A stretch of DNA of 64,000 nucleotides from Negaprion brevirostris (lineage: Eukaryota). Below are positions 37,181 to 62,662 of the stretch, piece after piece (position 1 is the first letter of the stretch; the number at the start of each line of letters is the position of its first letter). The notes beneath the pieces were generated by a model that saw nothing but the letters and a program-made list of their open reading frames with translations, made no database searches and was not told where the DNA came from. The position numbers were made by a program, and so were the translations under genes. The stretch lies in NCBI GenBank assembly GCA_030324005.1, contig JARDVH010000163.1, positions 94,051,366 to 94,115,365 of the forward strand, read 5' to 3'.

Positions 37181-39935
37181 GGAAATTTATACAACCCAAA
37201 AAACACATTGACGTGAACACTTCTGAAAGCTGGGTGAATTCCCTGTTCCTTTCAGTCTTGGTCTGTAATTCTTTGACAGCCTTTGCTTTTCTGCATCTCT
37301 TGTATTGTACTGTTGTACAACTTTTATTTTTGCCTTAGTTTGTGTTACAATCCCATTTATACAAACGTGTTGCCCGGTTCATCTGTCCTTTCCTTTCTTC
37401 CTGCTTTGGTTTGCAAAGGCTCCTCTTGAATTGGGCACTTGGAAGTGTCTGTGAGTAGTTTGGGACCAATGACCTATTTATTACCTTTCTCCTGGGGAAG
37501 TAGCTTGCTTTAAATCTGTGTACCTTTGTAAGCACAAGGTCAAGAACTCTATGAAGGGAATACTAAATGTGAACACGCATTTTACCATCTGTGGTGCCAA
37601 GGTACTCTGAAAACATACTGTCCACATCACTTCTTCTGTTGTTTTTAATTTGTTTTCATTTTTTCACTTCACTTGATACAAAGCATTCCTTAAATCTCAA
37701 CCAAAGCAAACATTGCCCGTGGTCTGAGAGAGCAGTTCAGGCTCGGTAACACCTCTGCAGTTATAATAATCACACACTTGCCTCCATCTAGTGTAGACTG
37801 TCTCTGAAGTCTGGAAATTGGCATCATTTTGACTATCACAAATCTGCCCTGCATTTCCCTATATTCTGAGGTAGAATGTGACTTATTCAGTATTGCTCCA
37901 TTATATAGTATTCTTCGGAAGTAAGAACAAAGCTATCCCAAATTTATTTTGGATTTAAATCTGAACCTCTTAAAAATCATGAAAAAAATGTTATTACAAT
38001 AAACAATTAAATGGTGTTATTATAACATTCTATTTAATTAAATTTTGAGCTAGATTGTTAAAGTTTCAATATCGATTATTTTGCGACAGCATCTAATTTT
38101 GCTGATCTTTGCATCATCATAAAGCAGTACTGTGGTTGATGCAAGACAACTATTGAATATGTATTCAAGGTTGTAACCTACTCAGTAAAGGTATTCTGTC
38201 AATATATACACAACAGCAAATTGTAAAGCTGGATTTGCATTGTTTGGGAATATCTATTTAAAATTATAAAGGATATTTAAAGTCAAAAACTAAAAGTGCC
38301 GATGCCAACAAGAAAGGTGACCATCAGAAGGCCGTAGGAGATTATTCAAACTATTCCTTACTTTCTATATCATAAAAATGTTCTGTAGCATACTAATGTT
38401 TTTTATTGTCAGCATGTTTTATTCAGTTTTAGTAGTAAAAGAAAAGTAAATCCATTAGCCACATAAATGCTTTGTCTAGGATATCTTTGACTGCCCAGTG
38501 GGCCTATACTATCTGGTGTATACTAAATTTTTGAGTAAAATGTCCTAATTTTATCCCTCAGCTATGCTAAATTAGCTAATATTAGCAGTAGCAGCAAATA
38601 GAACATTATAGTTGACATCAAGCATTCTAAATTAGTATGAGGAATAAGCAACTGAAGTTCCTGGATGCTGTTAACTGACATCCAGTTACCAGTGCTACGA
38701 AGTGTATAGGTATTAAAATTGGATGAGGACTCTTAGTCCTGTTAGTACATGTCTCTTAGTAGATGAGGAACTTGTCATCACTTGCTCTGTAGGCTTGCGT
38801 ACAGAGAATGATCACTTGAGTAAGGTGCCATGGGCTGCTGGAATCCATGAGGAAATTTTCCATTATGACTCCGGTGAATTCAAGAGAACACCGAAGGGAA
38901 TGATTTTGTTCACTTTGCATAAAATTGAGTGCACAATTAAGACTCAGTTCAAATCTAGAAGGCGGATCTGTAATTTGTTTGACATATTCACAGGCAAACC
39001 ACTAGATGGCACGTCCAACTAGAGAAAATACTGTAAGAACATGCTTCCTGATTACCAAATTAGAAACCAACATTGGCAGCAGAAGTTATGGGGAGAGCCT
39101 GTGGCCTTCTCACAGTACGTTCCCAGATAGATGGGAATCTGTTATAAGCTGGTGTGAGAAGGTTCGGCAACGTAAATAAAATGTCAGTTATCTCCCCAAC
39201 CAGCATCTGTGACATGTCACCAATGTGATGGAGATTCTATTTGATATCTTCAGTATCCCATGTACATCGATCACCAGTTTAGAGTACAAACTTCTGTTGA
39301 TATGACATAGTTATTTTGACTTACGCTGTCTGTGTTTTTCTAAGCTAATATTCTGGTCTAGTGGCCCCACTTTTTTGAACTTGAATGCATGGACAGTCAG
39401 CTCCACCTAATATATATCTTGCTTTTGCCATAATACATACTCAGACAACATGCTGTTACCCCCATTTGTGAGCTTTAGATGCTGCTGTCTGTCAGCCTCT
39501 GGTGGTTTATCTCTAGTGTCTGGATTTACTTTAAGACTTGTACGTCTATCACAGTGGTGTTGCTTTGAATGTGAGATCAAAAGAAGATGAATTCCAGAAA
39601 AAATTTCCTTGTATGAAGAAAGGAACAGTCTTGTGTAAACATCCCCATGACAGCTCCCAATGAGTTATTTTACTAGAGCATTAGCACCCAGGATGACAGA
39701 CAGGCAGAGACTACGTGCAAAATAACAGATCAGTCCCTGTGAGCCAGCAGNNNNNNGCCACAACAGAAATAAGATTTCTAAAGGAATTTTGTTCCACTTT
39801 TATAGTAAACGTTTGTGTGGCAGCTCATCTTTTTACAAGCTGTCTTGCCTTGGAGTCTTGCAAAGCAGACACTGGTTTTCTTTACGAGGTGATGTTTGTT
39901 ATTAAGGCACTCACCTGACAGAAAGCAGCAGTATC

Positions 39936-40235
39936 ATGAATAGAGTCAAGGATAAATTTGAGAACAAAGTCAAGATGGCTATTGTACATTTTTGTTTATT
40001 TGTCATTTACTTATATGGGCATTGCTACTGTGGAAACGGGCCTTCTGAGCTGGCCAAGAAGGGCAGCCTTCCAGTATATTTTCATTTCAGTGAGCTTCAG
40101 CAGCATAGCACTTCCTGTTTATTCAACATCTTTACACCATTCTTCAGCCCCCGCTTCACAGCAACAGCCAAAGAACAACTGCAAGCCAACGGAAATTTAG
40201 AGGCATTAAGATCTTTCGGTAAACTTCCCCACTCT
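39936..40235 (+). CDS. FOXP1: Putative alternative first coding exon of the FOXP1-like gene (100 codons), spliceable in frame to 41586
   Basis: ATG 39936 (atcATG) and in-frame ATG 39975 (aagATGG, strong Kozak); open for 300 nt to TCT|gtaatt (phase 0, weak donor). Contains LQQHSTSCLF and RSFGKLPHS, resembling the recalled human FOXP1 alternative N-terminus (..VLQPHSTSCLFKHLF..RAPFAKLFIFS|ALQVARQ). Translation is not demonstrated. Confidence 0.55.
40110..40123 (-). promoter_or_regulatory. FOX:ETS composite motif
   Basis: ACTTCCTGTTTATT = AATAAACAGGAAGT on the minus strand, an overlapping forkhead plus ETS site matching the established endothelial FOX:ETS motif. Confidence 0.55.
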
Positions 40236-41585
40236 GTAATTATTTGTGTCATATCCAGAATTAAATCTGCCAATTAAACAGTCCCAGTGAGCCGAGTAGG
40301 GGAGCTGTCGAAAGATGCAAATGTTATGATTTAACCTTAAATTGATGGTAAATTAGGTCATGCTGAGGAATAAGGAAAATTTTACGAAGAATCAATTTAT
40401 ATTTTTATCAGTCAGTTTTGTGTATAAATACTGGGGGTGACTTGTACAACCAAAAAAGTTTGCTTCATAAAGTCAAATAACAGGTAGTAACAAAGAACAA
40501 CTCGTCTGCCAAAGCACATATAATGAATGTTTTCTAAATAATATTTAACTCCATAAAAGTTGCCTTTTGTGATTAAGAGTGGTCAGATGTTTGGAACTGG
40601 TCTGAACTGTTTGTTTAATAGTAGGAGTAATCACATGGGGGAGGGGAATGGAAAGAGTGACTGAATTTATTTACTCAGATGTTATACTGATGTAGGTGTG
40701 GAACTGAAAGTCATTGTGGGAACTGTGGGTTGGTTTTTGTTGGTATCTTCATAGTTCTGATGGTCATCGAATTTCCCAGCTTGTTGGTTTTGTTTATTCT
40801 GGACAGTCTAAGTTTGATTATTTATCAGAAGGAAAAGGGAGTAGTTTGGGCATAAAACGCCTATGCTGGGTTTTATTTTTCCAGCAGCCAGAAGCATGGT
40901 TTAGTGCATTGCAAATCTTTTAAAGACAGCATTCTATGGTATGATTTATTTTGATGAAAGAGAGTAGAATTTTTAATTCAGTTCTAATTATCCCAAGCAG
41001 CATCGTACTTATAAGTAAACAAATGGCTAATAATGTTCTTCACGTCCAACTTTTTGTATTATTAGGATAGTTTCATGATTTCTTTTTGGTTTGTAAGATA
41101 TTTTAATATATCCCATTTTATTATTCTCCCACTCATAGCCCAAGGGATTCTTTGGTTTAGCTGTTTTGTAACATTCTAGCCAGCTCTTCATAATGCATTG
41201 TTCCTTTGGAAAATTTGATATCTACTGACAACCATCCATCAATATAGTCTGAAAATGGAATACTCTTTTAGTGCAAAAAGGAGACATCAGAATGCAGAAT
41301 ATTTCGTAGATATACCTTTATGTTCAATAAAAAGCATGTTAACTTTAAAGAGACTTCCAGAATTTAATGTTGCAGAATTATATGTGGCACTGTCATCAAT
41401 CGAAATAAATTTCATTTATCTATTTAAAAAATTTCTTTTAGGGTGTTAGCTGTGGAGGTTTGAGCTGTAAAACAAACTCTATGAAGCACCATTTGTGGTA
41501 ACTCTTCTTTGTGTAACAGAGTAGTAAACTGTCCCATTGGGTCTATTTATGGTTAAAAGGTGAATGTTATTCTTTTTTTATGTAG

Positions 41586-41675
41586 GCTTTTCAAGTTGCA
41601 CGACAGCTCCTGCTGCAGCAACAAGCCAGTGGGCTAAAGTCTCCCAAGGGAAATGACAAGCAACCGACCCTACAG
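41586..41675 (+). CDS. FOXP1: Internal coding exon of a FOXP-family forkhead transcription factor (N-terminal Q-rich region), best match FOXP1
   Basis: Acceptor ttcttttttatgtag|GCT and donor CAG|gtaagt; 90 nt, phase 0-0; translates [30 protein letters not shown]. Compare human FOXP1 [11 protein letters not shown]7VSGLKSPKRNDKQPALQ and FOXP2 [34 protein letters not shown] family near-certain; the paralog call rests on VAR and NDKQPxLQ plus the upstream exon. Confidence 0.9.
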
Positions 41676-42819
41676 GTAAGTGTATATTTATAGATTATAT
41701 GTATAACGTGTGCATGTTTGAACTGTTCTTAGATAGGAAGAATGTGAAGTGGACAATTTTGACGTGGGTGTCATGTGCTATACTTAATGGAATGATGCAA
41801 AATAATCTTTAATGATCTGTGTGCTAACCAGATCTGATGTTAGGTAGTGAAGAAGTGCTTTGTTGTGTTGTTGGTGTCTAAAAACTCCCTTAGAAAATCA
41901 AATATGACTACTTTGACCTTTCAGCTTATATGTGAGTATTCAAATAACTTGAAAGGATCAAATGAGCCACTGTTCATAGTCAAACTAGGAATTTTGTTAC
42001 AGAGGATACTCTTATAGTCAGTTCTATTACAGAACCAATCTGATTCTTATGAAGGGTTGGTGCCACTGAACTGAGGTATCATTATTAAAATTCAGTTTTA
42101 TTAAGGCATTCAAAACATAATTAAATAAAATGCTATATTTATTCTAATACCACTTTGGGTCTTTGATATTTATATATAAATCTACATACTGTTAATACCA
42201 TGAATGATTTTTGCTCTCTGCTTTGTCTCTTGCTCACAAAAAACATGAAATGAAATGCACTCCAGCAATATGCATTCATGCCATTTTATTGGCCACACTA
42301 AAATTGAACATTAAAAAAAGTTCTGATTTCCCTAAACTGGGTTGAAGTAAAATGACCTTGAGCTAGGATTACAACATTTTCATGGTAAAGAAAGATTTAT
42401 ATCAGCCAGTATACTTTTGATATTAAAAAAAGAAAAAAAAACTAAAAGTGATTTATGTTTCCATTTTGTATTTGGAAATTTTTTCTCACTTTAAACTATG
42501 TGCACCTCCACTGATCATAGCCCTGTTCTCCACTGACATCCACACACACATCACTGAAATTTTGTACCCTGCCAAGTTCAGGAATGGAGCATAATGGAGC
42601 CTGAAAATACTCGCGCCACTCGGCATGCCAATTTTCTGATTCTGTTCCTGCAGCTGCCCATTATTATGCTGAAGTGGTTTTCAAGCCAGTAGTGTTATCT
42701 GCCTCAGTGAGACAGGTAGCCAGTTGTGTCAGCCAGAGATAAAGAAGACTGTCTAGGATTTTTGCAGCGGGCTTCCAGTTTCCTGATGGGACAAAGGACC
42801 ATGTGACTGCTTGAATGCA

Positions 42820-61687: not shown

Positions 61688-62662
61688 GGGCCCGATTTTA
61701 CCATTTTGATTCAAAGTGCTAAGCGGACTTGAAACTGGGAGTGTTTCAGATCTGTCTGTTAGACCCATTCTCAGGTGCCCCCATACGTACCCTGCCTGCA
61801 AAAATATCAGCGATTCTGAATCGTGCTGCACAAGCCTGTGGGCGGGGCTTTACGTGCCCAAAACCCTGCAGCTCCAATCAGTACCTCCAACTGCACGTGC
61901 ACAGAAAAACAATGATGGAATGCTGCTCCCTTGCCATGTCTCTCCTGGGTCAGATAATGCCTCCCCCTGGTCCCCACAGACACTGCCCCACCCTCATAGC
62001 ATTACTGACCCCCTTACCACCCCCACCGATCTCAGACAGAGCGGCAGCAGACCTCCCTTTTCTCCCCTCCTATTCATCTCAGGCAGAGTAGCAGCAGATC
62101 CACCCCCCACTGATCTCAGGCAGAGTTGCAGTGGACCCCCCTTCCTCCCTACTGATCTCGGGCAGAGTGGCAGCGGACCCCCTTTCGCTCCCACTGATCT
62201 CAAGCAGAGTGGCAGCGTAGAGTGGCTGTCTCCCTCCACTGATCTCAGGCAGAGTGCCAGTGGAGAACCCCTCTTCCTCCCCACTGATCTCAGGCAGAGT
62301 GGCAGTCGACCCCATTTAGCCTCCACTGATCTCAAGCACAGTGGCAGGAGACACCGCCCNNNNNNNNNNNNNNNNNNNNNNNNNNNNNNNNNNNNNNNNN
62401 NNNNNNNNNNNNNNNNNNNNNNNNNNNNNNNNNNNNNNNNNNNNNNNNNNNNNNNNNNNCCCCCCCCACCAAATGCACGCAAATTCATTTAGATGGCTGT
62501 TGCGCCCATTTCGGGCACGGTTATGATTGCGGCCATTTTTGGGCCTTGCTAACAGGGGATCCGACGCGGAGGCGAGTGCAGATCATATTACTTGCCTCGT
62601 GCCCAACTTTATCAAGTTTGCATGCCCAAAAATGGGTGCAAAGTGATGGTAAAATAAGGTCC
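61688..62662. mobile_element. Non-autonomous Harbinger-like element containing a minisatellite
   Basis: TIRs gggcccgattttaccat / atggtaaaataaggtcc; TGT TSD. Confidence 0.75.
62022..62359. repeat. ~43 bp GC-rich minisatellite, at least 8 copies, running into a gap
   Basis: Core ccactgatctcaggcagagtggcag with variable pyrimidine-rich linkers. Confidence 0.92.

What the first reader, a model, noticed from the sequence alone, without database searches (positions are those of the whole stretch)
39936..41675. Alternative FOXP1 first exon that would give the transcription factor a signal-peptide-like N-terminus
Seen: a 100-codon ORF (39936-40235) ends at TCT|gtaatt in phase 0. It joins across a 1350-nt GT-AG intron to the FOXP exon as ..RSFGKLPHS|AFQVARQ... 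From either ATG the start reads (MNRVKDKFENKVK)MAIVHFCLFVIYLYGHCYC-GNG: basic n-region, ~13-residue hydrophobic core, small-residue c-region. Inference: either an ER/membrane-targeted or secreted FOXP1 isoform, or, if unspliced, a stand-alone 100-113 aa Cys-containing micropeptide (stop at 40277). I know of no such FOXP isoform. Caveat: the hydrophobic codons overlap a T-rich forkhead site, so the peptide may be a by-product.
Basis: partly seen in the sequence, partly recalled or inferred. Interest (0 to 1): 0.8.

Follow-up and report, generated by a model that had tools for sequence, protein, structure and literature searches.

The report
Ancient FOXP1 internal promoter, scrambled peptide
This shark DNA is the counterpart of an alternative start of the FOXP1 gene already catalogued in humans; mammals and shark read it in different frames, so it is likely kept as a gene switch, and the signal-peptide look is likely a by-product.

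Summary
The ORF, both ATGs and the 1350-nt GT-AG gap are real. The region is the shark orthologue of a known mammalian FOXP1 alternative first exon: human isoform Q9H334-3 and a marsupial isoform both align to window 40069-40226 (scores 116-125; random intron pieces reach at most 52). They align only by switching frame 3-5 times, along different paths. The mammalian ATG is GCC here, and a TAG lies in the frame that matches the human middle part. The best-kept block is an exact Forkhead-ETS composite site (40110-40122), read as different residues in human and marsupial. So the DNA is conserved and the peptide is not. None of 79 cartilaginous-fish FOXP1 entries carries this N-terminus. A signal-like start is found in 2 of 34 long intronic ORFs, this one included. 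The donor may sit where the mammalian donor sits but is weak, and two contig sets read through it. Best reading: an internal promoter/first exon that likely yields nuclear, N-terminally shortened FOXP1. A shark-specific ER-targeted isoform is not excluded (about 5%).

The parts
39936..40277 (+). ORF of 113 codons (second ATG at 39975); likely incidental
   Evidence: no Pfam family; 1 unrelated repeat-protein hit among 1.84 billion representatives
39975..40031 (+). T-rich codons giving the hydrophobic stretch; forkhead consensus at 39993
   Evidence: best 11-aa Kyte-Doolittle mean 2.7, best 19-aa mean 1.64, 56% T
40024..40035 (+). short block matching the 5' extension of a cat-family isoform (P0221) in a frame other than the ORF's; overlaps the proposed cleavage region
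   Evidence: 4 of 4 residues identical in frame 1; short, weak
40066..40235 (+). orthologue of the coding part of the mammalian FOXP1 alternative first exon (human Q9H334-3); GCC at 40066-40068 where mammals have ATG; TAG at 40198-40200 in the frame that matches the human middle part
40110..40122 (-). exact Forkhead-ETS composite site (published k-mer RTMAACAGGAAGT)
   Evidence: only match in the window, 0.01 expected; none in 27 other loci; k-mer from PMC6949242
   Evidence: GT..AG, 1350 nt; donor score -3.55 against 1.39, 8.88 and 4.88 for three canonical FOXP1 donors; contigs of X1 and X2 bridge the donor
40578..41010 (+). second alternative first exon region (limits approximate); spliced to 41586 in run X4; its GT is AT in this genome; candidate ATG|GT donor at 40936-40940
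   Evidence: joint 41007 to 41586 with 3 letters between; Heterodontus isoform X6 (P0122) maps to 40942-41010, E 4e-6
41586..41675 (+). FOXP1 second coding exon (human exon 7)
   Evidence: contig depth 198 and a loose end matching the canonical upstream exon in X1

Best explanation
The stretch 40066-40235 is the shark counterpart of the mammalian FOXP1 alternative first exon and holds an exact Forkhead-ETS composite site; it is likely kept as an internal promoter and 5' leader rather than for a peptide. Inferred mechanism: a forkhead and an ETS factor bind the composite site together and start transcription inside the 76-kb intron, skipping the first coding exon. The transcript would splice into the exon at 41586 from this donor or from the second first-exon region at 40.6-41.0 kb. 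The shark has no ATG at the mammalian position, so translation would mostly start at the Met pair of the next exon and give a nuclear FOXP1 lacking about 95 N-terminal residues, like the short isoform of human B cells. The 113-codon ORF and its hydrophobic start are likely what T-rich, forkhead-site DNA happens to spell. Shown: homology, frame switching, loss of the ATG, the motif. Inferred: promoter activity, factor binding, start site, splicing in this species, start codon used.
For: Homology: human P0302 (Q9H334-3), 9 more placental entries and 2 marsupial entries carry the exon. Frameshift-aware scores are 116 (human), 125 (marsupial) and 121 (orangutan), against mean 33 and maximum 52 for 120 random window pieces. 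Frame not kept: human needs 5 frame changes and marsupial 3, along different paths. Over the composite site human matches 7 of 7 residues in the ORF frame, and the marsupial 5 of 5 in the next frame. Mammalian ATG is GCC here, with a TAG in the human-matching frame. Motif: exact, 1 in the window, 0.01 expected. Positive control: another alternative first exon of this intron (L019:9671) keeps its peptide in one frame, 7 of 11 identical to turtle, gecko and frog entries. Annotation: of 79 cartilaginous-fish FOXP1 entries from 21 species, 55 start canonically, 11 at the Met pair of the next exon, 13 with other short starts, 0 with this ORF. In run X2 the 4 listed changes in 40090-40277 are 3 non-synonymous and 1 synonymous (78% non-synonymous expected without codon selection), against 11 listed in the next 104 nt. 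Internal promoters and exon-8 starts of FOXP1 are reported in PMC5394978, PMC7145990 and PMC3887110.
Against: No start site, binding or promoter activity could be measured. Marsupial and placental versions both stay open from ATG to donor (61 and 62 aa), and the marsupial shares the shark ORF frame over 38 codons with 21 identical, so an open frame may be under some selection; annotation also shows only species where it is open. The second ATG has a strong context (A at -3, G at +4). The lower density of listed X2 changes runs to about the ORF's stop codon, past the donor. The X2 count is tiny, from a table with 81 rows hidden, with limits chosen after seeing it. The donor matrix is rough: a real alternative donor in this intron scores only -0.12. 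The cluster listings showed at most 15 members each.
Confidence: 0.75

Rival explanations
1. The exon is spliced at 40235 in this shark lineage and translated from ATG 39936 or 39975, adding an 87-100 aa leader whose sequence does not matter much; the protein stays nuclear, as presumed for human Q9H334-3.
For: Donor probably at the mammalian position (G-K-L anchor then a Ser codon and GT). Frame open from both ATGs to the donor. Strong context at the second ATG. Mammals use this exon as a coding start.
Against: 0 of 79 cartilaginous-fish entries have it. Weak donor. Contigs of X1 and X2 bridge the donor. An alternative alignment for carnivore and fox entries places the mammalian exon end about 20 nt further 3', where the shark has no GT.
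Confidence: 0.13
2. One reading: the leader acts as a signal peptide and sends a FOXP1 isoform into the ER or out of the cell.
For: From the first ATG: net +3 n-region, 11-aa hydrophobic mean 2.7, small residues after it. X4's contig over 39900-40033 has no gap.
Against: Needs the previous rival to hold first. 2 of 34 long intronic ORFs pass the same rule. The core holds His and is followed by Tyr; the second ATG has no basic n-region. Mammalian versions have no hydrophobic start (best 11-aa mean 1.0-1.2). X1's contig over 39905-40082 is one base shorter than the window, position not shown, depth 2.65, so inconclusive.
Confidence: 0.04
3. Unspliced transcripts make a stand-alone 100-113 aa micropeptide.
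For: Contigs of X1 and X2 bridge the donor and the stop. Listed X2 changes are sparse up to about the stop codon.
Against: No relative among 1.84 billion representatives but one repeat protein matched over 20 residues. No Pfam hit. Frame broken in mammals. No synonymous bias in 4 changes. X1 covers 27 of 30 bins of the intron, as unspliced precursor or DNA would.
Confidence: 0.03
4. In sharks the element is only an intronic enhancer (for example endothelial or lymphoid); first-exon use arose in mammals, and sharks start at 40.6-41.0 kb or elsewhere.
For: The only alternative joint seen in the stretch comes from the downstream region (X4). Heterodontus X6 maps there. A FOX:ETS intronic enhancer of human FOXP1 is listed in PMC10952167, position relative to this element not established.
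Against: A GT after a Ser codon appears to be kept at the mammalian exon end. This rival overlaps the best explanation (regulatory DNA, no peptide) and differs only in whether transcription starts here.
Confidence: 0.3

Closest known systems
Human FOXP1 isoform 3 (UniProt Q9H334-3) and its alternative first exon; probably the 'exon 6b' of Ensembl FOXP1-011/-009 in PMC3887110
   Same: Same intron, homologous DNA, joins the same exon. Full-length mammalian forms with this start weigh 76.2-76.4 kDa, like the 76 kDa given for FOXP1-011.
   Different: Shark has GCC for the ATG, a different frame path and a stop in the human-matching frame; its upstream ATGs and hydrophobic stretch have no counterpart in the mammalian peptides. 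That this exon is 'exon 6b' is inferred: the paper's primer table has no 6b primer.
Short FOXP1 (FOXP1-iso, start at M101 in exon 8) from internal promoters in B cells
   Same: Transcripts that lack the first coding exon, keep exon 7 and start in exon 8 (PMC5394978, PMC7145990); 11 of 79 cartilaginous-fish entries start at that Met pair.
   Different: Which first exon gives those shark entries was not visible; no link to this element was shown.
Forkhead-ETS (FOX:ETS) composite elements
   Same: 13 of 13 match to the FOXO1:ELK3 reference k-mer of PMC6949242; such motifs drive endothelial enhancers and promoters (PMC10952167).
   Different: Here it lies inside a first exon that mammals translate. 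Binding, cell type and any FOXP1 self-regulation are untested. Not shown to be the +138 kb FOXP1 enhancer.
ER-targeted transcription factors (NFE2L1, CREB3/ATF6, MYRF, SREBP; recalled, not from a call)
   Different: Those segments are conserved in frame and serve regulated release; here the segment is not conserved and a cleaved signal would leave FOXP1 in the ER lumen.

Membership tests
Mammalian FOXP1 alternative first exon (Q9H334-3 type) | Lies between the first and second coding exons of FOXP1 | tested here: met
   76-kb intron, element 1.35 kb before the second coding exon
Mammalian FOXP1 alternative first exon (Q9H334-3 type) | Homologous sequence | tested here: met
   scores 107-125 against a null maximum of 52
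Mammalian FOXP1 alternative first exon (Q9H334-3 type) | ATG at the mammalian position | tested here: not met
   GCC at 40066-40068
Mammalian FOXP1 alternative first exon (Q9H334-3 type) | Same peptide in one frame | tested here: not met
   3-5 frame changes; TAG at 40198
Mammalian FOXP1 alternative first exon (Q9H334-3 type) | Phase-0 donor at the matching place, spliced to exon 7 | tested here: inconclusive
   two possible 3' alignments; weak score; contigs bridge it
Mammalian FOXP1 alternative first exon (Q9H334-3 type) | Own transcription start site | not testable with these tools
   only contigs were available; they cannot show starts
Forkhead-ETS composite element | Forkhead core directly followed by GGAA | tested here: met
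   exact 13-mer, 0.01 expected
Forkhead-ETS composite element | Conserved across species | tested here: met
   indirect: human and marsupial peptides match the shark DNA over the site in two different frames; mammalian DNA itself not seen
Forkhead-ETS composite element | Cooperative binding and activity | not testable with these tools
   needs EMSA, ChIP or reporter assay
Sec signal peptide | Basic n-region | tested here: inconclusive
   +3 from ATG 39936, 0 from ATG 39975
Sec signal peptide | Hydrophobic core and small residues at -3/-1 | tested here: met
   by a simple rule only, which 2 of 34 long intronic ORFs pass; SignalP not available
Sec signal peptide | At the N-terminus of an expressed protein, kept in relatives | tested here: not met
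   0 of 79 cartilaginous-fish entries; mammalian versions not hydrophobic
Conserved micropeptide | Frame and codon-level conservation | tested here: not met
   shark-to-shark data thin (4 changes)

The most novel reading that the evidence does not exclude
A shark lineage has turned the leader of an ancient FOXP1 internal promoter into a new coding start whose signal peptide sends a forkhead factor into the ER or out of the cell, so that promoter choice switches FOXP1 off or exports it.
Probability: 0.04. Interest if true: 0.75.

Novelty: new member of a known kind. Interest (0 to 1): 0.22.

Why it matters
It dates a FOXP1 internal promoter region to the common ancestor of sharks and mammals and names a testable input, an exact Forkhead-ETS site, for the internal promoters that make the short FOXP1 of activated B cells and lymphoma. 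It also suggests that the 62-aa start of catalogued human isoform Q9H334-3 is a passenger: a marsupial reads the same DNA in other frames and the shark lacks the ATG. I found neither point in 9 literature searches, but two key papers were not held. The headline claim, a secreted or membrane FOXP1, would matter much more but has little support.

Tried and rejected
Homologue search with the ORF among longer proteins: 16 candidates, none at E <= 1; weak evidence, and proteins of similar length were not searched with this tool. phmmer over 50% representatives: 1 hit, a tandem-repeat protein, rejected. No RNA holder listed for the stretch; the 5 'RNA?' runs hold small shares. Four of them were laid (X1, X2, X4, X5; 4 of 11 runs listed): no 40235-41586 joint was listed, but contigs show presence, not absence. 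No DNA run was laid, so the ATGs and frame in other sharks were not read directly. No second copy of the element in the genome. Pfam and Rfam: nothing. The ESM Atlas gave no result. With 1 mismatch the 12-mer motif is expected by chance (0.60); only the exact match is rare. The 40938 donor as source of the isoforms that add only a Met (5 shark entries, 1 sheep entry) is unproven: 85 ATG-GT sites lie in the intron and 7 score higher than 3. The exon-6 donor line was mis-located and was redone. Five rows of bacterial-looking short proteins in a cluster listing were dropped before the count of 79. Earlier scan notes: none on this place or its relatives; three unrelated ones by words. No structure prediction was run.

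Full report
Observation. The ORF runs 39936-40277 (113 aa), with a second ATG at 39975 and TCT|GTAATT after codon 100; a 1350-nt GT..AG gap leads to a 90-nt exon at 41586-41675. The window is G000:C163:94051366-94115365. In 20 neighbouring stretches the first coding exon of FOXP1 lies at L021:5040, 76 kb upstream, and the next exon at L011:7408, 50 kb downstream. The first-exon peptide equals that of a RefSeq shark FOXP1-B entry (P0052). So the gene is a shark FOXP1 and the exon is its second coding exon (human exon 7 in PMC5394978).

How much is chance. Any Val codon gives a phase-0 GT, and the ORF has 7 such sites. On a rough donor matrix (recalled base frequencies) the chosen one scores -3.55, and 924 of 2396 GT sites score as high. 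Three canonical FOXP1 donors score 1.39, 8.88 and 4.88, and a real alternative donor -0.12, so the matrix is only a guide. A simple signal-peptide rule is passed by 2 of 34 ATG-started ORFs of 100 aa or more, and 4 of 547 of 45 aa or more, in 264 kb of the locus, this ORF included. The second ATG has no basic n-region.

What it is. Two homologue searches and two cluster listings gave 410 proteins (one). Ten placental entries start with a 62-aa peptide in place of the first coding exon, among them human Q9H334-3 (P0302); two marsupial entries (Dromiciops, P0347-8) start with a 61-aa version. These map to window 40069-40226. A frameshift-aware alignment of my own (penalties chosen by hand) scores 121 for the orangutan peptide against mean 33, maximum 52 for 120 random window pieces, and 116 for human and 125 for the marsupial. 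The region is therefore the orthologue of a catalogued mammalian alternative first exon. PMC3887110 describes a frequently used alternative exon 6b in Ensembl FOXP1-011 (76 kDa) and -009; full-length forms with this start weigh 76.2-76.4 kDa. That it is exon 6b is likely but not shown.

DNA kept, peptide not. The human peptide follows the shark DNA through 5 frame changes and the marsupial through 3, by different paths; at least three switches are clear in each from blocks of identity. Where mammals have ATG the shark has GCC, and the frame matching the human middle part ends in TAG at 40198. The best block, about 40101-40124, is read as HSTSCLF in human and shark and as ALPVY in the marsupial, each identical to the shark DNA in its own frame. 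It holds ATAAACAGGAAGT on the minus strand, an exact match to the FOXO1:ELK3 reference k-mer of PMC6949242: 1 match in the window, 0.01 expected, none in 27 other loci. As a control, another alternative first exon in this intron (L019:9671) keeps an 11-aa peptide in one frame, 9-10 of 11 identical to other sharks and 7 of 11 to turtle, gecko and frog. Against this reading: both mammalian versions stay open from ATG to donor, and the marsupial shares the shark ORF frame over 38 codons, 21 identical.

The donor. One alignment (G-K-L anchor, two one-codon gaps) puts the shark TCT|GT at the mammalian exon end; another, preferred for panda and fox, puts it inside the exon.

Expression. Four contig sets guessed to be RNA were laid on 39900-41720. 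X1 has a loose end matching the canonical upstream exon and a contig of depth 198 on the exon. X4 joins 41007 to 41586 with three letters between, the same exon end as Heterodontus isoform X6, which maps to 40942-41010; in this genome that donor reads AT. Contigs of X1 (40107-40434) and X2 (40059-40532) bridge the proposed donor, as precursor RNA or DNA would. X2's listed changes are 4 in 40090-40277 (3 non-synonymous; 78% expected without codon selection) and 11 in 40278-40381 (Fisher p 0.004; limits chosen afterwards, 81 rows hidden). X1's contig over 39905-40082 is one base short, position not shown, low depth. Of 79 cartilaginous-fish FOXP1 entries from 21 species, 0 carry the ORF: 55 canonical, 11 starting at the Met pair of the next exon, 5 adding one Met to this exon, 8 others. 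The listings were partial (best 120 hits; at most 15 members a cluster).

Mechanism. Most likely an internal promoter and leader: a forkhead and an ETS factor would bind the composite site and start transcripts that skip the first coding exon. Without the mammalian ATG they would mostly be translated from the next exon's Met pair, giving a shortened nuclear FOXP1 like that of human B cells (PMC5394978, PMC7145990). FOX:ETS motifs drive endothelial enhancers and promoters (PMC10952167). Binding, start site, splicing here and start codon are inferred. Whether sharks start transcription here or use it only as an enhancer is open. If the start lies upstream of 39975 and the donor is used, the strong second ATG would add the hydrophobic leader; this is the 4% case.

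Literature seen. Passages only: PMC3887110 (plus its primer table; one supplement was a scan and two slide files could not be read), PMC5394978, PMC7145990, PMC10952167, PMC6949242. Brown et al. 2016 on internal FOXP1 promoters and the 2008 FOX:ETS paper were not held and may describe this element. A search for the peptide's first six letters found 0 papers; a search for FOXP1 with signal peptide and secreted listed 15 of 21 papers, none on such an isoform by title or abstract start. Other binding-site consensus patterns and the ER-targeted factors named above are recalled.

Verdict. Real sequence, real ancient element, known kind. The signal-peptide isoform is not supported. Interest 0.22.

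Noticed in passing
L019:9671-9703 (G000:C163:94041036, about 10 kb before the window): Alternative first coding exon of FOXP1 giving an 11-aa start (MDD..SW.TK), intact here with a GT donor and kept in one frame in sharks, turtle, gecko and frog (7-10 of 11 identical). Not seen among the mammalian entries fetched. A better candidate for a conserved, little-studied FOXP1 isoform than the finding itself.
   Followed up: partly
window 40578-41010: Second alternative first-exon region, covered in X1, X4 and X5 and spliced to 41586 in X4; the donor at 41011 is AT in this genome, with a candidate ATG|GT donor at 40936-40940 and forkhead consensus sites at 40791 and 41015.
   Followed up: partly
P0045-P0048, P0127, P0325: Isoforms that add a single Met to the second coding exon are annotated in five sharks and in sheep, hinting at a conserved first exon ending in ATG|GT; its place was not fixed.
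   Followed up: partly
L018:1732-1776: Counterpart of a Stegostoma alternative start (P0139), 10 of 15 identical but with a stop codon in this genome: another lineage-limited leader peptide.
   Followed up: no
P0302 versus P0347: Human Q9H334-3 and the marsupial isoform read the same first exon in different frames for most of its length, so the human N-terminal peptide is probably not selected as protein.
   Followed up: yes
window 61920-62492: Tandem-repeat-like open frames on both strands next to an N run, probably a minisatellite.
   Followed up: no
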